64,000 nt of DNA, from NCBI GenBank assembly GCA_963708045.1, contig OY970181.1:3740-67739 (forward strand), in the 5' to 3' direction. Below are positions 7,995-64,000 of this stretch, one piece after another. The notes beneath the pieces are model-generated. The model made no database searches and was not told the DNA's origin. It saw nothing but the letters and a program-made list of their open reading frames with translations. The translations under genes and the position numbers were made by a program. The stretch is from an uncultured bacterium. GTDB lineage: Bacteria > Patescibacteriota > Patescibacteriia > CAIQCM01. The stretch's first letter is position 1, and each line of letters opens with the position of its first letter.

Positions 7995-9176
7995 CTAACC
8001 AGGCTTGCGATCTGGTCTTAAGAACCATAAACCAATCGCAGCAACAATAAGTCCGACGCCGCAAAAGCCAAAGACCGTAACAATAATCTCACCACCGACC
8101 GGCTTTCCTGCTACGCCCAACGCTGTCCCGACCAAAACAAACGCATAGCCAGCGCGGCCGATAAGTGATTGCAGCGATCCATAAGTGGCGCGAAAGTGTT
8201 CGCCGACATGTTGTTGAGTAAAGGTATCAACGAGCGGCGAAAAAAATCCGCGTCCCAATTCGTGCAAAACAATCAGCCCAAGCAATGGATAGACGGACTT
8301 GGTCACAAAAACAAAGCCAAGACCAACGCCGGAAATGAGAAACGACATAGCAATCATCCCTGCTTCGCGACCAACCGGTTTTTTACTTCGTCTTATGTAA
8401 AAACCAGCCAGAGCGGCAGCGCCATAAATCGGTATCCACGACCAAGCCACTCCTACGCTTCCAACCCTTTCTTTTAGAAGCGGTGTCCAGTACAGATTGA
8501 ACGGAATAACCAACCCCATGAGCATTGAAGCGGCTGATGCCCAAATTAGACTAGGCGATTTCTTTAACGCGCCAACACTTTCCTTAAGAGCGTGAAATTC
8601 GGAGACACGGTGTACTGGTTCGCCGCTGTCATTCATCACGAAAACCGCGGTAATAAGCGCCGCCGCCGCAAAAAGTGCGCCCATTGCCCAGCCAAGGCGC
8701 GGATAACTCGGGGCAAGAAAAATACCCGAGAAAAAACCACCCACAATCATCGCTAGCGACGAAGCAATTGACCCTGTGGCAAAAGCATGACGTAATTTTT
8801 CTTGCTCATTGCGGTGACGCAAAGCATCGGTAAGCCAAGCCTGGAGTGCGCCCGAAGTAAATGCATTACCGATCGCCACCAAACATTCAGCAATAACCGC
8901 CGTCCAAAAACCACGCACGCCAGCGTAAAATGCCGACCCAAAACAAAGTGCCAAAGCACCGCAACAAATAGAAAAGCGCCTGCTTCGCCCATCGGCAATC
9001 ATCCCCGTCGGAACTTCAAAGATAACGACACAGAACCAAAAGATAACATTTACCAAGGCAATGTCGGAAAGGGTAAGCCCGTTTGCAATGAGAAGCGGTA
9101 TGTAGATAACCACCGTCATACTTGTTGAGAGTCCGACGAGCAAGTTATAAAGAACGAAAACGCGTGTTGGATGCAT
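7995..9176 (-). CDS. MFS-family transporter
   Basis: About 12 predicted TM segments and the MFS motif region (GMIADGRSRRF). 393 aa. Confidence 0.7.
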   Translation of the reverse strand: MHPTRVFVLYNLLVGLSTSMTVVIYIPLLIANGLTLSDIALVNVIFWFCVVIFEVPTGMIADGRSRRFSICCGALALCFGSAFYAGVRGFWTAVIAECLVAIGNAFTSGALQAWLTDALRHRNEQEKLRHAFATGSIASSLAMIVGGFFSGIFLAPSYPRLGWAMGALFAAAALITAVFVMNDSGEPVHRVSEFHALKESVGALKKSPSLIWASAASMLMGLVIPFNLYWTPLLKERVGSVGVAWSWIPIYGAAALAGFYIRRSKKPVGREAGMIAMSFLISGVGLGFVFVTKSVYPLLGLIVLHELGRGFFSPLVDTFTQQHVGEHFRATYGSLQSLIGRAGYAFVLVGTALGVAGKPVGGEIIVTVFGFCGVGLIVAAIGLWFLRPDRKPG

Positions 9177-27639: not shown

Positions 27640-28731
27640 TTAGATATTTTTATAAGCAGTTCCCACCGCCTCCGAAATATTCTTGTAACCATTTTTATCT
27701 AGAAGCGCAACCAATCCGCGATTGATTTCGCCGATAAGTTGTGGGCCTTCAAAAATCATTCCCGTGATTAATTCTACAAGCGTCGCGCCGAGTTGAATTT
27801 TTCGGAACGCATCCTCGGCGCTAAAAACACCGCCACACCCAATGATAATATATTTGCCCTGCGCCTTCTTATATATATACGCAATCTGATCGTCAGAAAG
27901 TTTCTGCACCATCTTCCCAGAAAGCCCGCCCTTCAAGCGGATATCGTTCTCTTCTTTTTTCTCTTTAGTGAGATTAGTGCAAATAAAACCATGAACGCGG
28001 TGACGCGACGAAACTTCAAGAAGTGGATCTAATTTTTGCGGGGTAAGATCGGGTGATAACTTAAGAAAGACGGGCTTTTTTGTCGGAATTGCGTCAAGCT
28101 GCGTCAATAATAAATCTAACCGCACGGGATCGGTAAATGGTTCGCCGCCGTAAGCATTAGGGCAACTGATGTTCACCGTAAAATAATCACCGATGTCTTT
28201 AAACGCGTTAAACGCTTTCGCATAATCCGCGATGCCCGTTTCCGTATCCGCACATGCGACATTGTTAGTCTTGGCAATATTAATACCAACGGGGATTTTA
28301 AATTTTTTATTCGCTAGACGGACGGAGATTTTTTCGCAACCGTCATTTTTTAATCCGTAGTGCACGACTAAAGCTTTTAATTGCGGCAAACGCCAGAGTC
28401 GCGGCTTAGAATTTCCCTCACACGGTTCGCCGGTAATTGATCCGACTTCGGTGAAACCAAAACCAACCTCCAGCATTATGTCCGTCATTTTGGCATCTTT
28501 ATCAAACCCAGCCGAAAGTCCAATTGGATTTACGAATTTTATTCCCGCGACCATTTGTTCCAAGCGCGGATTTTTATAAGAAAAAAGCCTACGCGTTATT
28601 GCGCGCGTGAATTTATATTTTCCCAAAAACACGCCGACTGCCGTAAACCAATCATGAACTTGCTCAGCATCAAAAAGAAAAAGAATGGGTTTAAGCGCTT
28701 TTCTATATACCGCCCCGATGATTTTCGCCAT
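27640..28731 (-). CDS. pyrD: Dihydroorotate dehydrogenase (quinone-dependent class 2-like)
   Basis: TIM-barrel DHOD motifs (GLSAGFDKD, FTEVGSIT, NISCPN, GCGGV). Start set at MAKIIG so the gene does not overlap the fusA terminator; the ORF track start is 28878. Confidence 0.75.
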   Translation of the reverse strand: MAKIIGAVYRKALKPILFLFDAEQVHDWFTAVGVFLGKYKFTRAITRRLFSYKNPRLEQMVAGIKFVNPIGLSAGFDKDAKMTDIMLEVGFGFTEVGSITGEPCEGNSKPRLWRLPQLKALVVHYGLKNDGCEKISVRLANKKFKIPVGINIAKTNNVACADTETGIADYAKAFNAFKDIGDYFTVNISCPNAYGGEPFTDPVRLDLLLTQLDAIPTKKPVFLKLSPDLTPQKLDPLLEVSSRHRVHGFICTNLTKEKKEENDIRLKGGLSGKMVQKLSDDQIAYIYKKAQGKYIIIGCGGVFSAEDAFRKIQLGATLVELITGMIFEGPQLIGEINRGLVALLDKNGYKNISEAVGTAYKNI

Positions 28732-28759
28732 ATGGCTATACTCTATAATGGAAGTCCAA

Positions 28760-28803
28760 AAAAAACAAAAGACCTCGCGGTTGGCGAGGTCTTTTGTTTT
28801 TTT
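28760..28803. terminator. Intrinsic terminator after fusA
   Basis: AAAAGACCTCGC-GGTTG-GCGAGGTCTTTTGTTTTTTT hairpin with a U-tract. Confidence 0.7.
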
Positions 28804-28807
28804 AAAA

Positions 28808-30886
28808 TTACTTTCTCTTCCCTTCAACAATCTGCGTCTCAACATTCTTTGGAACTTCGGCGTAGTGGGAGAATTCAATGGAGTAGCTGGCGCGGCCTTG
28901 GGTCATTGAACGCAAGGAGGTCGCGTAACCGAAGAGCTCGGAAAGTGGGACGTCGGCGTCAACGATCTTCATTCCGCTACGGTCACGCATTTCTTTAATC
29001 AGCGCGCGCTTGGAGTTAAGGTCGCCAATAACTTCACCCATATAGTTTTCCGGGGTAATAACTTCGGTCTTCATAATCGGTTCAAGAATCACAATGCCCG
29101 CCTTTTTTGCGGCATCCTGAACAGCCATAGAACCGGCAATTTTGAAAGCCATTTCGTTTGAGTCAACGTCGTGATACGAACCATCGGTCACGGTAACCTT
29201 GGTGTCAATCACGGGGTAACCGGCAAGAATACCGCGTTCAAGCGCTTCACCGGCGCCTTTTTCAATCGGCTTGATGAATTCTTTCGGAATAGATCCGCCA
29301 GTGGTTTCATCTTCAAACACATAACCAGAACCAACCACACCCGGTTCAACGTGCACATAGCAGTGACCATATTGACCGCGGCCGCCAGTTTGTTTGATGT
29401 ACTTACCTTCGCCATCGGCAGCTTTTTTAATGCGCTCTTTATAAGCAACCTGCGGCTGACCAACATTACATTCAACTTTAAATTCGCGCTTCATGCGGTC
29501 AACGATAATGTCTAGGTGCAATTCGCCCATGCCGGAAATAATAGTCTGCAAGGTTTCTTCGTCGCTTCTAACGCGGAAGGTCGGATCTTCCTCGGCGAGC
29601 TTGGAAAGGGCGATGCCCATTTTTTCTTGGTCAACTTTTGTTTTCGGTTCAATGGCGAGCGAAATAACCGGTTCAGGGAAGGTGAACTTTTCTAAGAGAA
29701 TCGGATTATTCTCGTCGCAAAGAGTGTGACCGGTATAAGTATTTTTCAAACCAACAGCGGCGGCAATGTCGCCCGAAAAAACTTCTTCAATATCTTCGCG
29801 TGTGTTGGCATGAAGTCGGACAATGCGACCAACGCGCTCGCGCTCGCCAGTTGCCGTGTTCAAGACATAAGAACCAGACTTAAGCATTCCGGAGTAGACG
29901 CGGAAAAAACAAAGTTTTCCAACGAAGGGATCGGCGGCGATCTTGAACATGATGGCCGTAAGCGGTTCGCTGTCGGTAAGTTTACGTTCAATTATTTTTT
30001 CGTGATCATCTGGGTCAGTTCCTTTAATAGAACCAATGTCGGCGGGTGATGGCAAATAGTCAACAATCGCGTCCAAGAGAAACTGCACGCCTTTGTTTTT
30101 AAGCGCCGAGCCGCAAAGCACGGGCACAAATTCAAATTTACACGTTCCTTTGCGGATCAACTTTTTCAATTCTTCTTCCGAAATTTCTTCGCCGGCCAAA
30201 AATTTATTCATTGCCGTTTCGTCCTGTTCAACAATTTTTTCAACCATCTTATTGCGCCATTCTTTGGCCAAATCAACCAAGTCGTCCGGAATTTCTTCTT
30301 CGCGAATATCCTTGCCCATTTCGTCGTAATAAACAAATGCCTTCATCTTGAGCAAGTCAACAATACCCTTAAACTTATCTTCCGTTCCAATCGGAAGCTG
30401 AAGTGGGAAAGCATTCTTGGTCAGACGATCGTGGATTGATTTAAGATCTTTATAAAAATCAGCACCGGTGCGGTCAAGCTTGTTAATAAAACAAACGCGC
30501 GGAACTTTATAGTCATCGGCATAGTGCCAGTTAGTTTCGGACTGCGGTTCTACGCCAGCAACGCCGTCAAAAATAACTGCCGCGCCGTCTAGCACACGGA
30601 GTGAGCGTTTCACTTCAACGGTAAAGTCAATGTGGCCGGGTGTATCAATCAGGTTAAGGCGGTGCCCTTTCCAAAAACAAGTGGTGGCGGCGGAAGTAAT
30701 CGTGATACCGCGTTCGCGCTCCTGTTCCATCCAGTCCATTGTTGTTTCACCTTCGTGCACCTCACCAATTTTGTGTTTCTTTCCTGTGTAATACAAAATG
30801 CGCTCGGAGCAAGTGGTTTTTCCGGCGTCAATGTGGGCAATAACTCCAAAGTTACGATATTTTTCAACTGGGTATTCGCGGGGCAT
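28808..30886 (-). CDS. fusA: Elongation factor G
   Basis: [17 protein letters not shown] and five-domain EF-G length (692 aa). Confidence 0.95.
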
Positions 30887-32001: not shown

Positions 32002-34515
32002 TTATTTAACAATTATCACGCCAGACCCTTTTTCAAGTTTTTTAAAAAGCAAATACTTCTCTCCAACTTTGATCCTGACAAATTTATTGTTAATAATCTC
32101 GCTTTTAGGAATATTAATTACACCGCCATATTTTTCCTTCAGGGCGTTGCCTTGTGCGAGCATCTCCCGCTCTTCCTTTCTCACAGCACTATCAAGCGCG
32201 TTAAAATCTATTTCAAACTTTCGGCCACGAAGACCAAAGTGGTCAATGATATTGCGCTGACCTTTGAGTTTGGCTTCAGTCTTCTTAAATTTTAGACCGG
32301 CATAATCTTTAACATCGATCTTATCAAGGACACTCTCCGGTGAATTGTTAAAATCGGCGACTTTTTCCAGTGTTATTACGCGCGATCGATATTCGTCGCC
32401 CTCAGCAACCTCGCCGGAATATTCATCAACGATCTTGAAACCCAACCCCTCGGCGAATTCATGAAATTTTGAAACATCACGTAGATCGAGACTATAGATA
32501 AAACTTATCACCGCTCGACCTCCCGGCTTTAAAACGCGATTGGCTTCTTTAAGCACTTCAAGACGTTCAAGCTTGCCTCTGCTTGGAACAAAGCTTGAGT
32601 AATGCAACGCCAAGGCCAGATTAAGATAATCAAACGACTTGTCCGCGAAAGGCAGCTCGCGCCAGCTGGCAACCGCGCTCTGTACTACCTGCTCCTCTTT
32701 CGCCCTTAAATGATACTTATTCGCGTCAACGCTAATTACCCGTTTCTGCAAAGCATCGCCGATATGCTGACGCAACATTTCGGGGCCGGAAGCTACGTCA
32801 AGAATACGCGTTTCTTCGGGCTTACCGCCGCGCTCTTTTAACATTGAGCCGACTAGCGTACCAGCGACACGATTAGCGTTGGCCTGATAACTGCGATTTC
32901 CAAGATCAAGATAGCAGTCGGCATAGTCCTTGCCGTACTCTGACAAAAATTCTCTGAAGCCCTCTTCTCCAATCTCTTTCACGTGCGCAAAGATCCGCAT
33001 CAGTTTATCCCACGACGAGAAATAATACTCTGCTAACTCCCTGCCAACCTCTAAATCGGGATTAGCACTTTGTTCGTCTTCTCTTAAGAGTTGCTTTTCC
33101 AGTTCTTGAATAGGAATGCCGTGAAGTAATTTTTCAATTGCCTGGTATTTCCGTCCGATATACTCGTGGATCCCCTCTTCAAGGGTATTTTTAGTAACAA
33201 AGGTGCGAACGGCGAGGTCGTGCTTCAAGCCCGGTCGGTATACTCGCGACACTTGTTGACGACGATCATATTCCGTCCATGGCTCGTTGTATGTAAAGAC
33301 AGTTTCGGCGGAAGTAAAATCAACACCAACATCGGCTGTCTGGCCGCTCACGACCAAAAGCATCTTACCGGTCGTTTCCCTGAATTTTTTTTGAATTTCT
33401 TCACGTTCGCCGCGATTGCCGCCATGAACAACCATAACCTCGACATCTTGAGGCAGACCGAATTTTGTGATGATATTATCTTTCCCACGAATAACGCCTT
33501 CAATATAACCGTTCACGAATAAAACAGCTTTGTTGTTTTTTGCAAAGCATTCGCGTAAATCATTACCAACTCTTTCAATTTTCGCACTGCGAATTCCCGG
33601 CGTGGCGTCTAATAAGTCCGGGTTCATTAGGAACTGCCGCAACATGGACATTTTCTGTGCCGCCTCTAATTCATCGTCTTCAAGGAGAACTTCATATATA
33701 TCCGTTTCCATTGGTGACAACTCGGTTTCAACTTTCTCCTCACTTAACGCAGGCATCTCCACCCCCTCTTCCAATTTCTTCGCCTGCATACGCGGCAATA
33801 ACAATGACCGCAGATCAACAAGGTCGCCTTGGATTATTTGCCGAACCAGGTCACGATCGTCCCAAGTCGCGAATTTTTCTGGATAAAGTAATTTCAAAGA
33901 GATAGCGATATCTTCGACTTTATTTGGCGCTGGCGTACCGGAGAGCAAGGCTAAATACTTACCTTCGCCTTCAACTTTTTTAGACAGTTCAATCAACTCG
34001 TTTGTCCTTTGTCCTTCCAAATTTTTCAATTTATGAACCTCATCAACAACCAGCATGTCGTATTCCAATGATGCTAGCGCTTGGCTATACCGTTCATTCA
34101 TGCGCTCTTGAGACATAAGCACATAATCGTATTGATCAGCAGTTACTCCGACTAAATCCTCAACCGAAGATACCTCCAAAACTCTCGGTGCTTCGCCGCT
34201 CTTAAAATACCCGCCGTCTTCGCCGCGATCGGACAAATACCGCCTCCAGGTAGAAACAACGTTGCTTGGCGCAACAACCAAAGCACAACCGATGCCAAGC
34301 TGTTCTTTAGCCATGATAACGGAAGCACTTTTTCCAAGACCCATTTCATCGGCGATCAAAAGCCGCCTTTTTTCCGCCAACTCCTTCATATTGATGCGCT
34401 GATTGATATCGGGAAATTCCCTGTTCGGATCAAGCGAATTGAACGAACCGCTCGGGTTTACGGAAATCTTTAAGGACGGAATCGTAATAGCGAATAACGT
34501 CTTGAATAACATCAT
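32002..34515 (-). CDS. SNF2-family helicase fused to a C-terminal class I SAM-dependent methyltransferase domain
   Basis: Helicase motifs I (ADEMGLGKSA), II (DEVHKLKN) and III-VI regions, then a Methyltransf_11-like domain (ILDVASGPEML, VLKPGGRAVISF). 837 aa. ATGA overlap with the upstream repeat-protein gene. Confidence 0.75.
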   Translation of the reverse strand: MMLFKTLFAITIPSLKISVNPSGSFNSLDPNREFPDINQRINMKELAEKRRLLIADEMGLGKSASVIMAKEQLGIGCALVVAPSNVVSTWRRYLSDRGEDGGYFKSGEAPRVLEVSSVEDLVGVTADQYDYVLMSQERMNERYSQALASLEYDMLVVDEVHKLKNLEGQRTNELIELSKKVEGEGKYLALLSGTPAPNKVEDIAISLKLLYPEKFATWDDRDLVRQIIQGDLVDLRSLLLPRMQAKKLEEGVEMPALSEEKVETELSPMETDIYEVLLEDDELEAAQKMSMLRQFLMNPDLLDATPGIRSAKIERVGNDLRECFAKNNKAVLFVNGYIEGVIRGKDNIITKFGLPQDVEVMVVHGGNRGEREEIQKKFRETTGKMLLVVSGQTADVGVDFTSAETVFTYNEPWTEYDRRQQVSRVYRPGLKHDLAVRTFVTKNTLEEGIHEYIGRKYQAIEKLLHGIPIQELEKQLLREDEQSANPDLEVGRELAEYYFSSWDKLMRIFAHVKEIGEEGFREFLSEYGKDYADCYLDLGNRSYQANANRVAGTLVGSMLKERGGKPEETRILDVASGPEMLRQHIGDALQKRVISVDANKYHLRAKEEQVVQSAVASWRELPFADKSFDYLNLALALHYSSFVPSRGKLERLEVLKEANRVLKPGGRAVISFIYSLDLRDVSKFHEFAEGLGFKIVDEYSGEVAEGDEYRSRVITLEKVADFNNSPESVLDKIDVKDYAGLKFKKTEAKLKGQRNIIDHFGLRGRKFEIDFNALDSAVRKEEREMLAQGNALKEKYGGVINIPKSEIINNKFVRIKVGEKYLLFKKLEKGSGVIIVK

Positions 34516-36392
34516 CCAGGTCTTTGTTGTTTAGGTGATGAAATTTTTCGAACGATCTCATCCAGATAATCATAAATTATATCTTGACTCGTCCTATTTG
34601 GATCTTTGCGCCGTTGTTCAAAATAATAGCTCAAACAATGCTCCTTGAGCGCTTCAAACAATCCTTCGCGCAAAGACAGGTCGGAAAGATATTCAACAGC
34701 AACTCCGATATTATCTAAGGTAAATTTTTGCGACTTGACCAAAAAATCGCCGAGGTAATCTGCCAAAATTCCTTTGACATATTCCGGCGGTAAGCCTTTG
34801 TATTCGGGACGGAATTTATAGAGAATATCTAAGGCGTGTGAGCCGCCCAGTACACCGACGAGAACTTGAAATTTTTTTGAATCCACCGATTCACCAACCG
34901 AAAGATCAGAAACAAAAGATTCAATAGAAATACTCGCATTTTTCTTTTCACTTTTTTTATAACATTCATCTTTAATCAACTCTATCAATTCTGGACTCAA
35001 AAACTCTGTGACAAAGCCGTTCCTGCGAAATTTCTTATACCATTCCTGATGTGCGGACCGATACCTGTCAGCAATTTTTTTGATTGCATCCCTCTTGGCA
35101 AAACCGATTCTACTCAACTCGAAAATATTCATCCAATCGTCTGGTGCTACCTCAAACCGTCCGAGATCCGAACGAATCGCCTCAATCAAATCGGGATGAA
35201 AATATTCAACCTTTCCACCAGCGGCTGGCCAATACTTCCTGAACCATTCCGGATGGGCCGCGCGATATTTTTCAGCTGCTTTCCATATGGATCCACGCGA
35301 CCCAATACCGGTTTTGCTTAAAGCAAATACATGCATCCACCCCTCCGGCGGCCTCTCCTTCCCCTCCAATTCATCACTGATAATTTTAACTAAATCTGGG
35401 TGAAAATATTCCAATTCAGGACTGCCAGGTGCCCAATATTTCTTGAGCCATTCCGGATTAGACACACGATACCTTTCTGCTATTGGCGTAATCACATTCT
35501 GCCCGCCGACACCAGTCTTTACGACGTCAAAAACCGTTTTCCACCCTGTGGGCGGTTTTTTCCTGCTTCGTAGTATCGCAATAATTATAGCGACTAATTC
35601 AGGGTGAAAATGTTCAATTTTTAATCCTGTTACGGTCTTGTATTCCTTGAACCATTCCGGATGACTTGTCCTATATGGCCCAACGATCCTATTTATTATT
35701 TTGTCGCCCCCTGTTTCTAAAACACTAATTTGACTCCTATTCATCCAGCCATCGGGTGCAAATTCGAATTTATTTAACTCTTGCCTAATGATTTCGACCA
35801 GATTCGGGTGCAAATATTCGCCGCTCGGGCCCTTTATAGGCCAAAACTCCTTGAACCATTCCGGATGCTCTGCACGATGCTGTTCGGCGTGTTTATTAAT
35901 CGTATCCCTGGATCCAATGCCAGTTTTACTTAAAGCAAATGCATTCATCCATCCCTCCGGTGCCCTTTCCCGTCCCTCTAACTCAGAACGAATTATCGCT
36001 ATCAGATCGGGGTGTAGATATTCGGTAGCAGAACCGGTTTCGGGATAAAAAAATTTAAACCATTCAGGGTGATCGTCCCGATATCTCGCCGCGATACTGT
36101 CAATCGTATCCCTGGATCCAATGCCAGTTTTACTTAAAGCAAATGCATTCATCCATCCCTCCGGTGCCCTTTCCCGTCCCTCTAACTCAGAACGAATTAT
36201 CGCTATCAGATCGGGGTGTAGATATTCCAAAAACCTACCTTCCTCGGTCCGAAAAAGCTTTAACCATTCTGGATGCTCTTTTTTGTATTTTTCAGCTATG
36301 TGCCTAATAACATAATCCTCTACTTTCAAGAGGCTCACCAGATCAATAAGTTTAACCCAGTCTTTGGGAACCTTGTTTGTTTCGAAAATCAT
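34512..36392 (-). CDS. Tandem-repeat protein (about seven 63-aa repeats with HPEWF...EYLHPDLIAIIRSELEGRERAPEGWMN consensus)
   Basis: Protein-level periodicity and a 189-bp DNA periodicity including two identical copies. Probably the downstream part of a longer gene interrupted by a frameshift near 36352-36392. Confidence 0.6.
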   Translation of the reverse strand: MIFETNKVPKDWVKLIDLVSLLKVEDYVIRHIAEKYKKEHPEWLKLFRTEEGRFLEYLHPDLIAIIRSELEGRERAPEGWMNAFALSKTGIGSRDTIDSIAARYRDDHPEWFKFFYPETGSATEYLHPDLIAIIRSELEGRERAPEGWMNAFALSKTGIGSRDTINKHAEQHRAEHPEWFKEFWPIKGPSGEYLHPNLVEIIRQELNKFEFAPDGWMNRSQISVLETGGDKIINRIVGPYRTSHPEWFKEYKTVTGLKIEHFHPELVAIIIAILRSRKKPPTGWKTVFDVVKTGVGGQNVITPIAERYRVSNPEWLKKYWAPGSPELEYFHPDLVKIISDELEGKERPPEGWMHVFALSKTGIGSRGSIWKAAEKYRAAHPEWFRKYWPAAGGKVEYFHPDLIEAIRSDLGRFEVAPDDWMNIFELSRIGFAKRDAIKKIADRYRSAHQEWYKKFRRNGFVTEFLSPELIELIKDECYKKSEKKNASISIESFVSDLSVGESVDSKKFQVLVGVLGGSHALDILYKFRPEYKGLPPEYVKGILADYLGDFLVKSQKFTLDNIGVAVEYLSDLSLREGLFEALKEHCLSYYFEQRRKDPNRTSQDIIYDYLDEIVRKISSPKQQRPG

Positions 36393-36480
36393 TTTTAATC
36401 AATAAAACCAGTTCAGGACTATACTCAATTCTAATCCCCCGCCCTGTTTCAATTTTACGGAACCATTCCGGATGTCCAGC
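34990..36480. repeat. 189-bp-period coding tandem repeat array; two adjacent copies share an identical ~120-bp block
   Basis: The block TCCCTGGATCCAATGCCAGTTTTACTTAAAGCAAATGCATTCATCC...GGGGTGTAGATATTC occurs at ~35909 and ~36098, offset by 189 bp. Older copies are diverged. Confidence 0.8.
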
Positions 36481-36711
36481 TCCGAGTTTATTGGCCAATT
36501 TTCCGATCGTGTAGAAATCAGAATTAAAAAACAGAGAGAGATGATAGGTCGTTTCCCATTTTTCGTTTTCACCAACTTCAACATTATTTTCTGTATTTGA
36601 AAAACCTGATTTGCCGATCTTAAAAACCGATTCATCACTCTTTTGTGGCTGCCCCGTATCGGATCCGTCGTTTTCCACGTCCGGCCGCCATTTTCCCTCA
36701 CCTTCAGACAT
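36352..36711 (-). CDS. N-terminal fragment of the same tandem-repeat protein (contains one HPEWF repeat), out of frame with 34512..36392
   Basis: Ends ...LIKNDFRNKQG while the next ORF begins ...NKVPKDWVKL. Together these restore one repeat unit across a +/-1 shift. Confidence 0.5.
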   Translation of the reverse strand: MSEGEGKWRPDVENDGSDTGQPQKSDESVFKIGKSGFSNTENNVEVGENEKWETTYHLSLFFNSDFYTIGKLANKLGAGHPEWFRKIETGRGIRIEYSPELVLLIKNDFRNKQGSQRLG

Positions 36712-36869
36712 AAAAAATATCTCATTCTTTAAGGTATATTTTTATCACGAAACCCAAAAAAACACTAGCGATTACATAAAATTTTTCCTTGCGAAGATTT
36801 GCCGGACCAGATAATCGTCAATATTTTTGTTTCTAAACCGAGCCTGGTTTTTGCCAAACAAAATTAAAT

Positions 36870-37500
36870 GAAAACCGCCAGCTAAACGCTGGCGGTTTCG
36901 TGCTTACCGGCTTAACGCCGGATTTTACTGAAGAGGCTTGGTTGCTCAAGTGTTATTTGGTGATGACTTTGATTCTGAACATATTTTTTAACCGCCTCCT
37001 CATTCACCCCAACGGTGGATACGAAGTAGCCTCTGGCCCAAAGAACACCTTTGGGAAACTTTTTGGTTTTCTTTTTTATCCAACCTGATGTTTTCGCTTT
37101 CAGAATTTGGATGACATACGCGATGGAGTATTTGGGCGGGATGCCGATGTGGAGATGGATGTGCTCATCACCAATGTGCCAAGCATAGATCTTCAAGCCT
37201 TTCCATTGGGCTATTTGGTTGAACATTCGCTTCAGCTCTTGTTTAATGAAGTTGTCCGCCAATACCTTGCCACGGTACTTTGGAGCCCAGACTATATGAT
37301 AGCTGCAGTGATATGTGCAGTGATCTAATTGGCATAGTTGATGGTTTCTGGACATAAAATCACCTCCTTTCTCGGGAGGTTATTTTATCTTATGGACAAG
37401 AGCTACGCTTTTAAACGCACTCGCCAGCTAAACGCTGGCGGTTTATCGTTTATAATGAAAAACCCCACGACTCTCTCCGCAGAGAGTCGTGGGGTTGTTG
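36870..37500 (-). mobile_element. IS200/IS605-family insertion sequence (tnpA only)
   Basis: Y1 HUH transposase ORF flanked by the same hairpin CGCCAGCTAAACGCTGGCGGTTT at ~36876-36898 and ~37422-37444. A strong hairpin (CCCCACGACTCTCTCCGCAGAGAGTCGTGGGG) at 37458-37497 forms the distal end. Confidence 0.7.
36912..37355 (-). CDS. tnpA: IS200/IS605 family transposase TnpA (Y1 HUH)
   Basis: YHIVWAPKYR, HUH motif HIHLHIGIP, and catalytic Tyr region RGYFVSTVG. Confidence 0.8.
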   Translation of the reverse strand: MSRNHQLCQLDHCTYHCSYHIVWAPKYRGKVLADNFIKQELKRMFNQIAQWKGLKIYAWHIGDEHIHLHIGIPPKYSIAYVIQILKAKTSGWIKKKTKKFPKGVLWARGYFVSTVGVNEEAVKKYVQNQSHHQITLEQPSLFSKIRR

Positions 37501-37509
37501 CGATCTTGG

Positions 37510-38598
37510 CTAGGCTATTTTTGATTTTTTCTTAAGCCCAATACACGCACGCTCGGCGTCGGCGAGACGATAGTAAAACTGCGATCTTCCTCCTTTTTCT
37601 TTTGCTCTAAACGGAACAAGGTTATGTTTATTAGCCCTGAACCGTAGCGTTATATAGCAAACACCCATTTTCCGTGAAAGAGCTTTCAACGTACCTACAA
37701 CTTCATCCTGAAAAGTGAAACAGCCGTCTTTGTCAGCTAAGTCAGTAAGCGCTATTTCCAGAACAGGAGTTGCGGCGTTTTGATTTCTCTTTCTTGACCC
37801 CACCAGATCCAAAGATGTATCAACCTCTTCCTTATCACTGTCGTCATCCCGCTCTTCGTCATCATCCACCGTTGTTTCAGTGGCCGAAAGACTTGATTTC
37901 ACTTCGGGAACAACAGCAATCATTTCCCAAGGCTCCCTCCCAACAATCAACCCCTGTTGTCTAAGCTCGTTCAAAATTACCCTACCATCCGAATGAGCAA
38001 GTCTCGCACGCGCGGAAAGAACTGTGAGTGGTGCACTAATACTTCTAAGTCTGTTCGGTAAAACAACAACATGCTCACAGAGTAGTGCAAACGACTGTTC
38101 AACGGACAACGGCTTGGGTTTGATTTCATCTTCCGGTGAAGCCGAGTGTCTCCACTTGCCTTGGTCAGGATCGATTTTCAACTGTCTGCTCCCCGCCTTT
38201 CGCATTCGCGAAGATAGCCTTTCAAGCGCAGTACCAACACTCTCAGCCGTTCTGTTTGTCTTTCTAACCGATCGTTCGTCCGGTGAACACTTGCCACACA
38301 GACACCCTTTGGTGTCTGTTATATGACCAACAACGGAGCATTTTTTACAGCGACGGGTCGCGGCGCAACAACCTGAGCATGCCCGCGGCCTCTGTTCTTT
38401 TTCGCAATCGTTAACTCCGATTAAAGCTCCCGCCAATAAACAATAGACCGTGACCAGTTCTTGATTTCCTTCCACAGGAGCCTCCTTTCTTTGGTTTGAA
38501 GTTGAACCCGGGCGCAATCGTTCTGCGCCCAGGCAAATAGGATCAACGTGCGTAAACAGACGCAACAACTTTCCCAAGACGATCAATCCTATCAACAA
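37510..38598 (-). CDS. Cys-rich hypothetical protein immediately downstream of a sigma factor (candidate anti-sigma/zinc-binding regulator)
   Basis: Long ORF with a CSGCCAATRRCKKC...GCLCGKC cluster and an acidic stretch. The true start is probably internal, because the first 56 nt overlap the sigma gene. Confidence 0.3.
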   Translation of the reverse strand: MLIGLIVLGKLLRLFTHVDPICLGAERLRPGSTSNQRKEAPVEGNQELVTVYCLLAGALIGVNDCEKEQRPRACSGCCAATRRCKKCSVVGHITDTKGCLCGKCSPDERSVRKTNRTAESVGTALERLSSRMRKAGSRQLKIDPDQGKWRHSASPEDEIKPKPLSVEQSFALLCEHVVVLPNRLRSISAPLTVLSARARLAHSDGRVILNELRQQGLIVGREPWEMIAVVPEVKSSLSATETTVDDDEERDDDSDKEEVDTSLDLVGSRKRNQNAATPVLEIALTDLADKDGCFTFQDEVVGTLKALSRKMGVCYITLRFRANKHNLVPFRAKEKGGRSQFYYRLADAERACIGLKKKSKIA

Positions 38599-39628
38599 TT
38601 CCGTCTATGTCGTCATATGTCAATCCCAACTCTTTGGACGCCACATGGATTGCTTGGAGTTCAATTTGGCGAACCCGTTCGCGAGTTATTTTAAAACGAT
38701 GCCCGATTTCTTCCAACGTTAATTGCTCGCATTCACCCAGACCGAAACGCAAATACATAATCGCTTGGGTTCGCCGACCCAACCGCCCAAACACCGCCTC
38801 AATGCGATCTAGCGCCAAAAGATTTTCCCGAAGCAAGCGACTGGCTTCAACAATTGTTTCCGGATCAGCTGACGGATCGCCCAAAACATCGCCGTAAGTA
38901 TCGCCACCCTCACCCTCATCGCCCTGCAGCCGCCGATTGAGCGACCAGTACTGTTGGATTATGTAACGCATACAGCTTGCTACCTGGCGCAGGGTTATCT
39001 GCTCATTCATCTTTCCGCCAGAGCCTCTGATTCTCGTGCATATCTGCATTGGATCAGGAAGCACTCCGCACGCTTTGTAATAATCCTCCATCGCTTTTCC
39101 AATCGTAAAAAGCGTATCTTGCAGATGGACAGGAAAACGCATCGGACGAAGTTGGCTCGTGTTTCTTATGGCTCTCGTAATCCCTTGTCTGACCCACCAA
39201 ACTGCGTAGGTGGCAAACTTGAATCCGCGTTCACACTCGTACTTTTCTGTCGCCCTCATTAGTCCAATGAATCCAGCCTGAAGCAAATCAGAAAACGAAA
39301 CGCCGCAATTTGGATACTTTTTAGCGATGTATACAACCAGCTTCATTGACCGAAGCAAGATAGTGTCGCGGATTCTTCTCTTCTCCACTTCGGACGAAGC
39401 CGCGTGCATTCGCGTAAACAATTGAACTTGTTCTTCGCGATCATCCAAAGTTGGGAGACCGCGCGCCGATGACAAAAATGCCGTCACCTCGCTTCTATCT
39501 GGGCCGCAAATTTGCGCTACCGCACTTTCAACATCACTAAAATCTATTTCTTCATTACCAACCTCAAGCTCGCTAGGCACCAAGTCGTCTAAAACAAGAT
39601 CGGTAAGTTCAGCAAGATTGTTTCCCAT
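38543..39628 (-). CDS. RNA polymerase sigma factor, sigma-70 family (RpoD-like regions 2, 3, 4)
   Basis: Region 2.x FSDLLQAGFIGLMRATEKY and YAVWWVRQGITRAI, and region 4.2 TLEEIGHRFKITRERVRQIELQAIH. Acidic N-terminal region. 361 aa. Confidence 0.75.
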   Translation of the reverse strand: MGNNLAELTDLVLDDLVPSELEVGNEEIDFSDVESAVAQICGPDRSEVTAFLSSARGLPTLDDREEQVQLFTRMHAASSEVEKRRIRDTILLRSMKLVVYIAKKYPNCGVSFSDLLQAGFIGLMRATEKYECERGFKFATYAVWWVRQGITRAIRNTSQLRPMRFPVHLQDTLFTIGKAMEDYYKACGVLPDPMQICTRIRGSGGKMNEQITLRQVASCMRYIIQQYWSLNRRLQGDEGEGGDTYGDVLGDPSADPETIVEASRLLRENLLALDRIEAVFGRLGRRTQAIMYLRFGLGECEQLTLEEIGHRFKITRERVRQIELQAIHVASKELGLTYDDIDGIVDRIDRLGKVVASVYAR

Positions 39629-60798: not shown

Positions 60799-61956
60799 TT
60801 AACGGTGAATACCTTCCGTTATTTTATAGATCGGAGTAATAACCGAAACCGCGACAAAACCAACAACCAAACCCATAATGAGTAGGAGCACCGGCTCAAT
60901 AATTGTTGTCATATTATTAACCGTGTCGTCAATTTCCTTGGTTAAGAAATCGGAAATATACCGAAACGAATCATCAAGCTTGCCGGTTTTTTCGCCAACG
61001 CGAATCATCTGAATAACAATCGGCGGAAAATATTTTGTGTTTAAACAATCGGCAATGTTCACCCCCTGGCGACTTACTTCGTTTGCGATTGCCAAAAGTT
61101 CGCGTTGAAAAACAAGGTTGCTTAAACTTTGCGAGGTAATATTTAACGCCCGAACGACGTCTACCCCAGCATCAAGCAGTGTCGCCAAAACCTGTGCCAA
61201 ACGAGTAATTTGCGCGTCGCGAAGCAATGGTCCAAAAACGGGAATCATCAGTTCGGTTTTGTGCAAAAAATATCTAAATTTTTTGTTAAGGAGCAATAGA
61301 CGAATAGAAATAATTAAAGCGGCAATTATTAACCCGATATAAACAACATTGGAAGAAACAAAGTGTGAAAAATCAAACAGGAATTGCGTGGTCGGCGGCA
61401 AAGAAACCTTTAGCGAAATAAAGATCGGCAAAAGCTGGGGCAAGGTAACAAAGCAAAGAAAGCCGGTGATACCAAAAACGCCAGCCAAAATAATCGCCGG
61501 ATAAATTAGAGCGCCGCGAACTTTTTTCCTGAGCGTATCGGCGCGTTCTATTTGCACAGAAATATAATTTAGATTTTCCGAAAGCTGGCCGCTTTCTTCA
61601 CCAACTCTGACCAAATTTACAAAAAGGTTATCAAAGATTTTTGGAAATTTACTGAGCGCGAGTGAAAGATATTGTCCATTCTCAACTTCACAAATTACGT
61701 AATCAAGAATTTTAGCAAAGCGCTTAATTTTGGTTTGCCCCCTGATCACGTCCAACGATTCCCGAAGTGGAATCCCCGCATTGGTCATAATAGAAAGATG
61801 TTTGGCAAAAAATATCTTTTGTTTGGTGGGAATATTGCCGTAGACTTTTATTTCTGGACATTGTTCCGTTATCTTGGCCGGCTTTTTTTCTATTTTTTTT
61901 ATGGACGCTGGAGGCATAAAATATTTATTCTTGAATAACACGCAAGACCTCGGCAA
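60799..61956 (-). CDS. pilC: Type IV pilus assembly platform protein PilC / GspF family
   Basis: Two GspF-like repeats with three TM helices. 385 aa. Confidence 0.8.
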   Translation of the reverse strand: MPRSCVLFKNKYFMPPASIKKIEKKPAKITEQCPEIKVYGNIPTKQKIFFAKHLSIMTNAGIPLRESLDVIRGQTKIKRFAKILDYVICEVENGQYLSLALSKFPKIFDNLFVNLVRVGEESGQLSENLNYISVQIERADTLRKKVRGALIYPAIILAGVFGITGFLCFVTLPQLLPIFISLKVSLPPTTQFLFDFSHFVSSNVVYIGLIIAALIISIRLLLLNKKFRYFLHKTELMIPVFGPLLRDAQITRLAQVLATLLDAGVDVVRALNITSQSLSNLVFQRELLAIANEVSRQGVNIADCLNTKYFPPIVIQMIRVGEKTGKLDDSFRYISDFLTKEIDDTVNNMTTIIEPVLLLIMGLVVGFVAVSVITPIYKITEGIHR

Positions 61957-63076
61957 TGGAGGTCATTCCTGAACCAGCTTTGGCAAAACCGTCTTCAAGC
62001 ATTGTCGTCATCCCGTTTTTTACAGCTGCGTCCAAAATATTTTCGGACGATGCTTTGCTGACAATGAGATCACGGATGTTTCCAAAAACTTCTAATACTT
62101 CATAAATACCAATCCGACCCTTGTAACCGGTTCCGCCGCAAGTTTTACAACCGCCGCCGATCCAAAAATTTTTATACATCCCGATGAGACGTTCAGAGAT
62201 AACGGATTTGAGGCGTTCGGTTTCGGCAGCAGTCGGAAGATATTCTTTTTTGCAATCCGGACAAATTTTTCTAACCAAACGCTGGCCAATAGCAATGTTA
62301 ACCGTTGAAGCGATGAGAAACGGCTCAATACCCATATCAATAAGCCGTGGCAGAGTCGTTGCCGCATCGTTTGTGTGGATTGTGGACAAAAGAAGGTGGC
62401 CTGTGAGCGCGGCATTAACGGCGATGGAAGCAGTTTCGTCGTCGCGAATTTCGCCGACCATTATCACGTTTGGATCCTGACGAACGATTGAGCGGAGGCC
62501 TTTGGCAAAAGTTAGATTGGTCGCGGTGTTAACTTGAATTTGCGTCACGCCATCCATTGAGTATTCTATCGGATCTTCAATGGTGGTGATAGAGACTTCG
62601 GGCGTATTCAACATTTGAATGAGCGTATAAAGTGTTGTTGTCTTGCCTGATCCGGTCGGTCCGGTCGCGAGAATCATTCCATGCGGACGATGAATATATT
62701 TTTCAATTAATTCTTTGTCACGCTTAGCAAAACCAAGTTCAGTAAGCGTAAACGCTTTAACCTGCGAAACCAAAAGACGAAGCACGGCGTCTTCGCCATG
62801 ATAAGACGGAATAATTGAAACGCGCAGGTCAACCGGCGTTTCGTTAAACGTAACCCGAAAGCGCCCGTCCTGAGCGGCCTGGTGTTCGTCGGTTCGGAGG
62901 CCGCAATTTACTTTTATCGTCGTGATGATTTGGTTAAGCAATACTTTGGGCAAAGAAAAAACTTTATTCATTACCCCGTCAATGCGAAAACGAATATCCA
63001 CTTGTTTTTCCGCCGGGTCAATATGCACGTCGGAGGCATGCATCAAATACGCCTGCTCAATCATATAGTCAACCAA
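61925..63076 (-). CDS. pilB: Type IV pilus assembly ATPase, PilB/GspE family
   Basis: Walker A GPTGSGKTT, Asp and His boxes, and a tetracysteine CPDCKK...CKTCGG motif. The N-terminal domain may continue upstream in another frame. Confidence 0.8.
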   Translation of the reverse strand: MVDYMIEQAYLMHASDVHIDPAEKQVDIRFRIDGVMNKVFSLPKVLLNQIITTIKVNCGLRTDEHQAAQDGRFRVTFNETPVDLRVSIIPSYHGEDAVLRLLVSQVKAFTLTELGFAKRDKELIEKYIHRPHGMILATGPTGSGKTTTLYTLIQMLNTPEVSITTIEDPIEYSMDGVTQIQVNTATNLTFAKGLRSIVRQDPNVIMVGEIRDDETASIAVNAALTGHLLLSTIHTNDAATTLPRLIDMGIEPFLIASTVNIAIGQRLVRKICPDCKKEYLPTAAETERLKSVISERLIGMYKNFWIGGGCKTCGGTGYKGRIGIYEVLEVFGNIRDLIVSKASSENILDAAVKNGMTTMLEDGFAKAGSGMTSIAEVLRVIQE

Positions 63077-63349
63077 TTTGTTGATGGAGACGTCTTTTTC
63101 GGTAAATTTTTCAAGTTCACTTTGTTTAAGCCCAACCTCTTTGGCAAAATCAGTTTTTTCTTTTTTTCTTCTTTAACTTCGGCAACTTCGGTTTTTTCTT
63201 CTTTAATGTCAACCACAGCCTCTTCTTTTGCGGGCTTAGAAACTTCTTTAATTTCTTTTTTAACGCGAGGAGGCATATAGTGTCTAAAGCATACCATTTT
63301 TTTATTCATTTTATAAGCGCTGGAACCAAATCGCCGCGCTTTCAAAGCT

Positions 63350-64000
63350 ATGAACGGTTTTTTACTGATAAATAAACCTATTGGCCCAACCTCGCATGAT
63401 ATTGTTGACCGCGTGAGAAGGGCGACCGGCGTAAAAACGGTTGGCCATGCCGGAACGCTTGACCCTTTTGCCGAAGGATTGCTTATTGTCGGCGTTGGCC
63501 GCGAAGCAACGCGCGAATTTCCACGCCTGGTTGGTTTAGACAAACACTATGTCGCGACTTTGCGCCTTGGAGCGACTTCGGACACCGATGACAGGACTGG
63601 CGTTATTAGCGCGGGGCAAATGGCAAATGGCAAATGGCCGACGCTTGAAAACATGAGTGCCGTATTAAAAAAATTCACTGGCAAAATAATGCAGCTTCCG
63701 CCGGTGTATTCGGCAAAAAAAATTCATGGCAAAAAAATGTATGAATTGGCGCGCGCGGGTTTGCAAGTGGCACGTAGCCCGTCGCCCGTGGAGGTCTATG
63801 GTCTGCGCATTCTAGACGACGTGCCACGCGCTACGTGCTACGAGCTAAGGCTAGATGTCCACTGTTCCTCTGGCACATATATTAGAGCCCTAGCTCGCGA
63901 CATTGGGGAGGAATTAAAAACCGGCGCTTACCTTGAAGAGCTTAAACGCACCGCCATCGGCCCGTTTACTCTTGAAGAGTCGGTTAGGCTTGATGATCTG
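63350..64000 (+). CDS. truB: tRNA pseudouridine(55) synthase TruB (3' end outside window)
   Basis: MNGFLLINKPIGPTSHDIV...GHAGTLDPFAEGLLIVGVG...QLPPVYSAKK translated by hand. It is not in the ORF track because there is no stop before the window edge. Confidence 0.8.
   Translation, partial: MNGFLLINKPIGPTSHDIVDRVRRATGVKTVGHAGTLDPFAEGLLIVGVGREATREFPRLVGLDKHYVATLRLGATSDTDDRTGVISAGQMANGKWPTLENMSAVLKKFTGKIMQLPPVYSAKKIHGKKMYELARAGLQVARSPSPVEVYGLRILDDVPRATCYELRLDVHCSSGTYIRALARDIGEELKTGAYLEELKRTAIGPFTLEESVRLDDL

What the first reader, a model, noticed from the sequence alone, without database searches (positions are those of the whole stretch)
32002..36711. Operon of a tandem-repeat protein and an SNF2 helicase-methyltransferase fusion, inserted directly upstream of rpsL
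**What the sequence shows.** Two overlapping minus-strand genes (ATGA junction) form this operon. The upstream gene encodes at least eight ~63-aa repeats (HPEWFK...EYLHPDLIAIIRSELEGRERAPEGWMN) that match no family I know. The downstream gene encodes a single polypeptide that joins SNF2/SF2 helicase motifs (DEMGLGKS, DEVH) to a C-terminal class I SAM-methyltransferase domain (LDVASGPE, VLKPGGRAVI). The pair sits between an IS200 element and the str operon.

**Why it matters.** Helicase-methyltransferase combinations are hallmarks of defence and anti-restriction modules, such as DISARM DrmD+DrmMI and Type ISP enzymes. Two things differ here. The MTase is Methyltransf_11-like rather than a DPPY/NPPY DNA MTase. 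The partner is a recently expanding repeat protein. I know of no described system with this combination, which makes it a candidate novel defence or epigenetic module.
Basis: partly seen in the sequence, partly recalled or inferred. Interest (0 to 1): 0.8.

Follow-up and report, generated by a model that had tools for sequence, protein, structure and literature searches.

The report
Frameshifted repeat–helicase–methyltransferase gene of CPR bacteria
The "two-gene operon" is one very large gene broken into three pieces by three single-base insertions; intact copies elsewhere in candidate-phyla-radiation (CPR) bacteria encode an uncharacterised protein that joins an array of DNA-binding repeats, a SNF2 motor and an Rrp8-like methyltransferase.

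Summary
The repeat period is exactly 68 aa, not about 63. The gene model is wrong. Single-polypeptide homologues align collinearly across three reading frames: 36711-36376, 36383-34542, 34552-34439 and 34455-32005. The ATGA "junction" lies inside a conserved 37-codon segment that neither ORF translates. This is therefore one gene of about 1,570 codons carrying three +1 frameshifts. It is most likely a recent pseudogene, because ten other window genes checked are intact.

Likely mechanism (inferred): a DNA-anchored translocase that delivers a base methyltransferase. The target is unknown. The family appears undescribed and moderately interesting; this copy is broken.

The parts
36355..36711 (-). 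Fragment 1 of the broken gene: N-terminal leader plus repeat 1 (repeat at 36376-36564).
   Evidence: ORF. The repeat HMM hit has E 3.5e-10. tblastn HSPs of P0002, P0006, P0025 and P0035 fall in frame -2.
36375..36392 (-). Frameshift A (+1). It lies within ATTAAAAATGATTTTCG (A5/T4 runs). The reading ...SPELVLLIKNDF continues as ETNKVPKDWVKL in the next frame, which completes repeat 1.
   Evidence: Three-frame translation, repeat register and the frame change -2 to -3 in tblastn.
34941..36368 (-). Repeats 2-8: seven units of exactly 68 aa with the conserved signature PEGW..T...LA....HPEWF...EHYSPELV. The predicted fold is a MerR-like winged helix-turn-helix.
35898..36269 (-). The only recent duplication or conversion tract within the array: period 204 nt, 1.8 copies, 88% identical.
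   Evidence: Tandem Repeats Finder and the pairwise unit identities.
34515..34940 (-). All-helical linker domain (DILY..RPEY.GLP...VK..LADYLGDFL...). In every intact homologue it is contiguous with the SNF2 domain.
34439..34552 (-). Conserved segment readable only in the third frame: HHLNNKDLDDVIQDVIRYYDSVLKDFRKPERFVQ. Neither annotated ORF translates it. The ATGA 'junction' (34512-34515) lies inside it.
   Evidence: tblastn frame -1 HSPs are 58-67% identical to P0002 and P0006. The segment matches the family consensus L..V......YY.S......KP...V, with YY at least 90% conserved.
34542..34552 (-). Frameshift B (+1), in CGAAAAATTT. Removing one A restores ...IVRKFHHLNNKDLDD...
34434..34442 (-). 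Frameshift C (+1), in GTTCAATTCGCTT. Removing one T restores ...KPERFVQSLDPNREFPDINQ...
33106..34404 (-). SNF2-type ATPase core with intact motifs: GLGKS aa 59, DEVH 158, SGTP 192, QQVSRVYRPG 420.
   Evidence: Pfam and motifs. The closest solved sequence is Sulfolobus SSO1653 Rad54-like, 1z63, at 2.2e-18, followed by ISWI, CHD and Snf2.
32356..33042 (-). Class I SAM methyltransferase domain, Rrp8/nucleomethylin-like. It has motif I LDVASGPE and no DPPY or PC motif.
32005..32355 (-). Conserved C-terminal alpha/beta domain of unknown fold class, specific to the family.
   Evidence: Conserved columns and confident AF2 secondary structure. The C-terminal half finds only 280 representatives among 1.84 billion.
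36860..37450 (-). IS200-type element immediately upstream. It is not part of the gene. TnpA is at 36912-37355, with matching subterminal hairpins at 36871-36899 and 37421-37441.
   Evidence: Pfam Y1_Tnp 1.6e-33 over profile positions 2-121/121, and the hairpins.

Best explanation
Window 32002-36711 holds a single ancestral gene of about 1,570 codons, not an operon. Three single-nucleotide (+1) insertions cut it into ORFs of 119, 626 and 837 aa. Most probably this is a recently inactivated copy, a pseudogene.

The intact family is specific to CPR/Patescibacteria. Its architecture is:
- a variable array of HTH-type DNA-binding repeats, here eight 68-aa MerR-like winged-HTH units;
- a helical linker;
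- a SNF2 dsDNA-translocase ATPase;
- an Rrp8/nucleomethylin-like class I SAM methyltransferase;
- a conserved C-terminal domain.

Inferred mechanism for intact copies: the HTH array anchors or targets the enzyme on DNA, and the SNF2 motor tracks along or remodels the duplex. The tethered methyltransferase modifies a substrate met there. Because Rrp8 methylates N1 of adenine in RNA, I favour a nucleic-acid base as the target (nascent RNA or transiently unpaired DNA) over canonical N6A/N4C/5mC DNA methylation.

What is shown: the gene model, the domain identities, the distribution and the lack of conserved partners. What is inferred: DNA binding, translocation, the substrate and the biological role (an accessory, dispensable function).
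For: Gene model:
- tblastn of single-polypeptide homologues P0002 and P0006 gives collinear HSPs in frames -2, -3, -1 and -2 across 36564-32005.
- Residue-level alignment places each junction at one extra base.
- The 37-aa segment lost to both ORFs contains family-conserved YY and KP residues.
- In 73 genome loci the linker is always in the same ORF as the helicase, in ORFs of 1,000-1,937 aa.

Real lesions rather than sequencing error:
- Ten neighbouring genes, plus sigma-70 and TnpA, show full-length Pfam profile coverage.
- fusA, tuf and secY-sized ORFs are intact.
- Two of the three shifts lie in unique, non-repeat sequence.
- Other members are also broken: L034 has an in-frame TGA and L070 reads in three frames.

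Domains:
- Pfam.
- AF2 models with pLDDT 92 and 91.
- Methyltransf_8 scores above its Pfam cut-off in homologues.
- The ATPase motifs are intact.

N-terminal module as a swappable DNA-binding array:
- 0-14 HPEW units per protein.
- The closest intact relative, P0240, carries an unrelated repeat of about 80 aa.
- Others carry HNH_repeat, HTH_23/24/17 or HTH_62.

Accessory status:
- 85 confirmed stretches in 185,579 species genomes, with search patterns present in 180 of 190 known members.
- The hits are scattered over all major CPR lineages.
- Neighbourhoods are variable.
Against: - No independent assembly of this strain exists, so sequencing error cannot be excluded. Metagenome scans for both junctions found nothing, and the best non-self homologue is 66% identical.
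- All three lesions are +1 insertions and two lie in A5/T4 runs. Such uniformity could reflect a systematic assembly error.
- Both large ORFs are free of stop codons and keep every catalytic motif, and the ATGA overlap could permit translational coupling. The pieces might still be made and work in trans.
- Nothing here tests DNA binding, translocation or the methyl acceptor.
- Class I methyltransferases of this fold also act on proteins, lipids and small molecules.
Confidence: 0.6

Rival explanations
1. The gene is intact in the organism, and the three frameshifts are assembly or sequencing errors. The true product would be one protein of about 1,570 aa, and everything else in the main explanation stands.
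For: All three lesions are single-base insertions of the same sign, and two sit in short homopolymers. The rest of the gene shows no stop codons or lost motifs. The contig is a single 1.19-Mb sequence, which would be compatible with a long-read assembly; that is my inference.
Against: Twelve other genes checked in the window are full length. If errors were uniform, the chance that all three fall in one 4.7-kb gene of a 64-kb window is about 0.5% (my arithmetic). The runs are short (A5, T4, TT), not the long homopolymers that cause systematic errors. Other family members are independently broken.
Confidence: 0.2
2. One reading: a true two-gene operon (repeat protein plus SNF2-methyltransferase) that forms a novel anti-phage or epigenetic defence module.
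For: The ATGA overlap and two long open frames are present. Four species have separate repeat-only genes directly upstream of a short-form helicase-methyltransferase. The distribution is sporadic, the N-terminal arrays are hypervariable, and a serine recombinase lies within 8 kb in 8 of 74 loci. SNF2 domains are common in defence systems.
Against: The junction here is created by two frameshifts and discards a conserved segment. Natural splits fall upstream of the linker, not here. No defence family cut-off is reached. There is no nuclease or other effector domain. Flanking genes are mostly housekeeping, and only 1-2 of 148 match PADLOC models. There are no viral or phage copies. The methyltransferase lacks DNA-methyltransferase motifs.
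Confidence: 0.1
3. A housekeeping role in ribosome or transcription biology. One version is an Rrp8-like rRNA methyltransferase driven by an SF2 motor. Another is a RapA-like RNA-polymerase-associated SNF2 that methylates nascent rRNA.
For: The methyltransferase is closest to the rRNA m1A methyltransferase Rrp8/nucleomethylin. The gene lies next to ribosomal-protein operons here (rpsL), in L005 (after rpsM-rpsK-rpsD-rpoA-rplQ-rplM-rpsI) and near rpsL in L034. There is weak RapA similarity.
Against: The gene is present in only about 85 of 185,579 species genomes, although the search patterns are about 95% sensitive. It is broken in at least three genomes. Ribosomal adjacency occurs in 3 of about 74 loci. 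The RapA score is 34 bits against a cut-off of 576. A variable HTH array fits poorly with a fixed rRNA target.
Confidence: 0.1

Closest known systems
DarB-like 'DNA methylase-helicase dyad' of phage and conjugative-element polyvalent proteins (Iyer et al. 2017, PMC5512222)
   Same: One polypeptide couples a SWI2/SNF2 ATPase to a SAM methyltransferase. The proposed logic is a DNA-tracking motor that lets the methyltransferase act processively.
   Different: In those proteins the methyltransferase is an N6-adenine DNA methyltransferase placed N-terminal to the ATPase, in virion- or plasmid-borne proteins. Here the methyltransferase is C-terminal and of the Rrp8/Methyltransf_11 type without DPPY. 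The gene is chromosomal and absent from viral collections. It also carries an HTH repeat array.
DISARM (DrmD SNF2 helicase + DrmMI/MII methyltransferase)
   Same: A SNF2-family ATPase is combined with a methyltransferase activity.
   Different: The DrmD models score 40-43 bits against cut-offs of 610-950. There are no DrmA, DrmB or DrmC neighbours. The methyltransferase is not a DNA N6A or 5mC enzyme. Here it is one polypeptide rather than a multigene cassette.
Rrp8 / nucleomethylin (Pfam Methyltransf_8; PDB 2zfu)
   Different: Sequence identity is only 17-19%. The window protein scores 22 bits, below the Pfam cut-off of 27. Rrp8 is a eukaryotic nucleolar protein with no motor or HTH array. 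Activity and target were not tested here.
Fungal DNMT5 (a SNF2 ATPase fused to a cytosine-5 DNA methyltransferase). This comparison rests on my own knowledge, not a tool result.
   Same: A single protein in which a SNF2 ATPase is coupled to a methyltransferase that acts on chromatin or DNA.
   Different: DNMT5 has a C5 DNA methyltransferase domain with a PC motif and is eukaryotic. No PC or C5 motif is present here.
MerR-like winged-HTH DNA-binding domains (pSK1 Par, RacA, ParA N-terminal domain, MerR family)
   Different: No Pfam or NCBIfam model recognises the repeat above threshold. Here the domain occurs as head-to-tail arrays of up to 14 copies with its own signature (PEGW...HPEWF...EHYSPELV). 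The known domains are single and act as dimers.

Membership tests
DISARM | A DrmD-type SNF2 helicase that passes the curated model | tested here: not met
   NCBIfam DISARM_DrmD_b scores 43.1 bits against a cut-off of 950, and DISARM_DrmD 39.5 against 610. PADLOC DrmD hits are partial, at 1e-13 or weaker.
DISARM | Neighbouring drmA, drmB (DUF1998) and drmC (PLD) genes | tested here: not met
   The window neighbours are IS200 TnpA, an unknown 362-aa ORF, sigma-70 and rpsL. None of these families appears among the 25 most frequent Pfam families in the 148 genes flanking homologues, and no family recurs in more than 2 of them.
DISARM / Type ISP / Type I-III R-M / DarB dyad | A DNA amino-methyltransferase catalytic motif (D/N/S)PP(Y/F/W/H), or a C5-methyltransferase PC motif | tested here: not met
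   The regex finds no match in the window protein and in 0 of 120 homologues. There is no PC dipeptide. Pfam gives Methyltransf_11/25/8, not N6_Mtase, N6_N4_Mtase or DNA_methylase.
Type ISP restriction-modification | An N-terminal Mrr/PD-(D/E)xK nuclease domain and a target-recognition domain | tested here: not met
   No nuclease domain appears in Pfam scans of the window proteins or of nine homologues.
Zorya ZorD / Dpd DpdE / BREX BrxH | A score above the curated family threshold | tested here: not met
   DpdE scores 50.1 bits against 500. ZorD scores 22 against 1500 for homologue P0006. The PADLOC ZorD hit at 2e-26 covers only the generic SNF2 core, profile positions 455-894 of 908.
RapA/HepA (RNA-polymerase-associated SNF2) | A score above the equivalog threshold | tested here: not met
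   NF003426 scores 34 bits against 576 and covers aa 49-219 only.
SNF2 (SWI2/SNF2) ATPase superfamily | A SNF2-related N-lobe plus a Helicase_C lobe with motifs I, II, III and VI | tested here: met
   PF00176 scores 61.9 bits (cut-off 24.9) and PF00271 scores 41.9 (cut-off 23.5). GLGKS, DEVH, SGTP and QxxxRxxRxG are present. The best PDB relatives are SSO1653, ISWI and CHD.
Rrp8/nucleomethylin (Pfam PF05148 Methyltransf_8) | A Pfam gathering score of at least 27 bits | tested here: inconclusive
   The window protein scores 22.2 bits (fails). Homologues P0035 and P0038 score 31.4 and 33.3 bits (pass), and P0104 scores 26.9.
Rrp8/nucleomethylin | The fold is closest to 2zfu among all solved methyltransferases | tested here: met
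Rrp8/nucleomethylin | N1-adenine RNA methyltransferase activity | not testable with these tools
   This needs an enzyme assay.
MerR-like winged HTH | A helix-turn-helix followed by a beta-hairpin wing and a C-terminal helix, superposable on known members | tested here: met
MerR-like winged HTH | A sequence-family match (Pfam MerR, HTH_17 and similar) above threshold | tested here: not met
   There is no hit for the window repeat protein. Homologues give only sub-threshold HTH_29/28/23/MerR hits.

The most novel reading that the evidence does not exclude
Intact members are a CPR-specific class of programmable, ATP-driven nucleic-acid modifiers. On this reading, a swappable array of HTH modules selects DNA loci or foreign DNA, the SNF2 motor tracks along it, and an Rrp8-like methyltransferase places a non-canonical base methylation on DNA or on nascent transcripts. 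An example would be a mark on the Watson-Crick face such as m1A. That would be an epigenetic or defence chemistry not represented among known R-M, BREX or DISARM systems.
Probability: 0.15. Interest if true: 0.8.

Novelty: new variant of a known kind. Interest (0 to 1): 0.45.

Why it matters
For this window, the result corrects a gene model. What looks like a novel two-gene module is one broken gene, so it should not be cloned or interpreted as an operon.

For the family, helicase-methyltransferase fusions are known from restriction, DISARM/BREX-like systems, phage DarB-type proteins and fungal DNMT5. All of those use bona fide DNA methyltransferases. Here a SNF2 motor is welded to an Rrp8/nucleomethylin-like methyltransferase and to interchangeable arrays of DNA-binding repeats. 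The family is confined to CPR bacteria, whose accessory biology is almost unexplored.

Identifying the methyl acceptor would show whether CPR bacteria have a motor-coupled RNA or DNA modification system of a new chemical type. The modular HTH arrays (0-14 copies, several unrelated repeat types on a conserved core) might also serve as a natural example of array-based DNA targeting.

Tried and rejected
- I looked for an independent assembly of the same strain to test the frameshifts. Two metagenome scans with indel-tolerant patterns across junctions B and C found nothing. The nearest homologue is only 66% identical.
- A sequence search of PDB with the methyltransferase half gave only generic class I methyltransferases.
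- A conserved operon partner was sought by clustering ORFs from 74 loci. Only a small protein of about 105 aa recurs (13 loci). It is absent from the window and has no Pfam match.
- Virus or plasmid association was rejected. IMG/VR hits are generic SNF2 at 22-30% identity over the helicase only, and the phage collection gave an irrelevant 99-aa hit.
- Conserved rpsL synteny was rejected; it occurs only in L034.
- Phase variation or programmed frameshifting was considered and judged unlikely. The tracts are short (A5, T4, TT), and three separate shifts would be needed.
- Literature searches for the architecture returned no description. The one CPR methyltransferase preprint mentions SNF2 only generically.
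Full report
**1. What is in the sequence**

Three minus-strand ORFs tile 32002-36711: 36352-36711 (119 aa, "p3"), 34512-36392 (626 aa, "p2") and 32002-34515 (837 aa, "p1").
- p1 carries SNF2-rel_dom (aa 49-290), Helicase_C (322-429) and Methyltransf_11 (572-670).
- p1 has intact ATPase motifs GLGKS, DEVH, SGTP and QxxxRxxRxG, and methyltransferase motif I LDVASGPE.
- p2 holds seven head-to-tail repeats of exactly 68 aa, with H-P-E-W anchors at aa 40, 108, ... 448. About 140 non-repeat residues follow.
- p3 holds an eighth repeat.
- The repeat region matches nothing in Pfam, NCBIfam or PADLOC.

Two points are off. The period is 68 aa rather than about 63. Only one tract of about 370 nt (35898-36269, 88% identity) looks recently duplicated, and the other units share 24-66% protein identity.

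**2. The gene model is wrong: one gene, three +1 frameshifts**

More than 400 homologues exist, and almost all are single polypeptides of 1,000-1,465 aa. P0002 matches both p1 and p2.

In the family alignment, the conserved region extends upstream of p1's start into what is the C-terminus of p2 here (DILY..RPEY.GLP..VK..LADYLGDFL...). tblastn of single-polypeptide homologues against the window gives collinear HSPs in four blocks:
- frame -2, 36564-36376
- frame -3, 36383-34542
- frame -1, 34552-34439 (58-64% identity)
- frame -2, 34455-32005

At residue level, P0002 reads ...YAYLDHVVDRLGHLESEELDDVIADVISYYDSVLRDFHKPEQFVEALAPDREFPDINQ... The window matches it as ...IYDYLDEIVRKI | HHLNNKDLDDVIQDVIRYYDSVLKDFRKPERFVQ | SLDPNREFPDINQ..., in three different frames.

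Each junction is explained by one extra base:
- an A in CGAAAAATTT
- a T in CAATTCG
- a base in ATTAAAAATGATTTTCG

The ATGA "overlap" lies inside the middle segment. That segment carries the family's nearly invariant YY and KP residues and is translated by neither ORF. In 73 genome loci the linker domain is always in the same ORF as the helicase, in ORFs of 1,000-1,937 aa.

**3. Pseudogene or sequencing error?**

Twelve other genes in the window show full-length profile coverage: T2SS E and F, L5, L24, Map, Adk, EF-Tu, DHO_dh, an MBL hydrolase, sigma-70 and IS200 TnpA. EF-G is a full 692-aa ORF. The assembly is therefore not riddled with indels.

If errors were uniform, three out of three falling in one 4.7-kb gene of a 64-kb window would have a probability of about 0.5% (my arithmetic). 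Two of the shifts lie outside the repeats. Other family members are independently broken: L034 has an in-frame TGA, and the L070 core reads in three frames.

I therefore favour real, recent inactivation at about 0.7, against error at about 0.2. I could not confirm this, because no second assembly of the strain exists. The uniform +1 sign of all three lesions is a caveat.

**4. What the intact protein is**

- **N-terminal array.** The array is modular. My HMM finds 0-14 HPEW units per protein. The closest intact relative, P0240/L006, is 63-67% identical in the core but carries an unrelated repeat of about 80 aa. Other members carry Pfam HNH_repeat, HTH_23/24/17 or HTH_62. The HPEW repeat is also fused to a different SF2 helicase (ResIII/DEAD/PF18766) and occurs in repeat-only proteins.
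- **Natural splits.** In four species, repeat-only genes lie directly upstream of a short-form helicase-methyltransferase. This is a natural split, but it falls upstream of the linker, not where the window is broken.
- **Motor.** It is a bona fide SNF2 ATPase. The closest solved sequences are Sulfolobus SSO1653, ISWI, CHD and Snf2.
- **No DNA-methyltransferase motif.** No DPPY-type or PC motif occurs in any of 120 homologues.
- **C-terminal module.** The methyltransferase plus C-terminal module is highly family-specific. It finds only 280 representatives (135 at E below 1e-30) among 1.84 billion, almost all at the C-terminus of proteins of 1,000-2,600 aa.

**5. Distribution and context**

The family is found across Microgenomates, Parcubacteria, Saccharibacteria, Doudnabacteria, Peribacteria, Gracilibacteria and Absconditabacteria. 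Only 85 stretches were confirmed in 185,579 species-representative genomes. The search patterns are present in 180 of 190 known members. The family is therefore sporadic and accessory, not core.

Neighbourhoods differ from locus to locus:
- Among 148 flanking genes, no Pfam family recurs in more than two. Most are housekeeping (EF-Tu-type GTPase, CoA ligase, PfkB, DNA ligase, aldolase, SAM synthetase and others). Only one or two match PADLOC models.
- A small unknown protein of about 105 aa is adjacent in 13 of 74 loci but is absent here.
- A serine recombinase lies within 8 kb in 8 loci.
- Ribosomal-operon adjacency is seen here, in L005 and near L034 only.
- No member is found in IMG/VR or phage genomes.

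**6. Mechanism (inferred)**

The parts suggest a DNA-anchored translocase that carries a methyltransferase. The HTH array binds DNA, the SNF2 motor tracks or remodels it, and the Rrp8-like domain methylates something encountered there.

Rrp8's chemistry is N1-adenine methylation of RNA (my knowledge), and canonical DNA-methyltransferase motifs are absent. I therefore favour a nucleic-acid base target other than classical N6A, N4C or 5mC, such as nascent RNA or transiently unpaired DNA. This is unproven, and class I methyltransferases of this fold also act on proteins and small molecules.

The swappable arrays, the sporadic distribution and the recurrent decay fit an accessory or conflict-related role. 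No positive defence evidence was found.

**7. Comparison with known systems**

The nearest concept is the SWI2/SNF2-adenine-methylase dyad of DarB-like polyvalent proteins (PMC5512222). DISARM and, from my knowledge, fungal DNMT5 are also comparable. All of these differ in methyltransferase class, domain order and context. All curated SNF2 families (DrmD, DpdE, ZorD, RapA) are failed by wide margins. I found no paper describing this architecture.

**8. Verdict**

The locus is a frameshifted copy of an undescribed CPR-specific protein with the architecture HTH array, SNF2 ATPase and Rrp8-like methyltransferase. It is a new variant of the helicase-methyltransferase theme. Interest is moderate (0.45), because the local copy is broken while the family's substrate remains a real open question.

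Noticed in passing
window 27640-28878 (-): A dihydroorotate-dehydrogenase-type gene (Pfam DHO_dh, 1e-59, full profile) sits between fusA and tuf inside the str operon. This is an unusual insertion for that operon, and an unusual gene for a CPR-like genome.
   Followed up: no
window about 36860-37450: A compact IS200-type element. TnpA is at 36912-37355, with two matching subterminal hairpins (36871-36899 and 37421-37441, CGCCAGC..GCTGGCG). It is wedged between the strong terminator of the upstream ORF (37461-37496) and the start of the broken gene. IS200-type TnpA also flanks the homologous gene in two other loci.
   Followed up: partly
window 37510-38598 (-): A 362-aa cysteine-rich ORF directly downstream of a sigma-70 gene (38543-39628). 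It has no Pfam, NCBIfam or PADLOC match.
   Followed up: no
L051:6580-6912, L023:5243-5578, L047:5293-5625 and 10 other loci: A small conserved protein of about 105 aa (motif F.VL....P...VS..Y..IL....G.LV.V......IPNIT...GVVRL) lies immediately beside the helicase-methyltransferase gene in 13 of 74 loci. It has no Pfam match and is absent from the window. It is a possible accessory partner.
   Followed up: partly
P0240 / L006:2690-7228; L040:5433-7490; L029:5922-7523; L041:5742-7526: The N-terminal repeat arrays are exchanged between close relatives. P0240 (63-67% identical core) has six or seven repeats of about 80 aa of a different type (WL..NG..GLY.W..KNGG..KFV.LAGE). L040 has Pfam HNH_repeat (6e-18). 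L029 and L041 have other HTH families.
   Followed up: partly
P0134-P0136, P0148, P0156, P0160, P0164-P0166 and others: The same 68-aa HPEW winged-HTH repeat is fused C-terminally to a different SF2 helicase family (ResIII/DEAD/PF18766 SWI2_SNF2). It also occurs in repeat-only proteins of 400-1,087 aa in CPR genomes.
   Followed up: no
L034:4419-10490; L070:7519-10555: Other copies of the family are also disrupted. L034 has an in-frame TGA at 8874-8876, and this locus is the only other one near rpsL-rpsG-fusA. The L070 core reads in three frames.
   Followed up: partly
L003:3901-9951 (= L028), L011:3817-7041, L045:3624-7335, L075:3183-4865: Natural operons of one to three repeat-only genes (262-909 aa, 3-7 HPEW units each) lie directly upstream of a short-form (983-1,132 aa) helicase-methyltransferase that keeps the linker.
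   Followed up: partly
window 60799-63543 (-): Type IV pilus / T2SS genes are present: a T2SSE ATPase at 61925-63076 and a T2SSF platform protein at 60799-61956.
   Followed up: no
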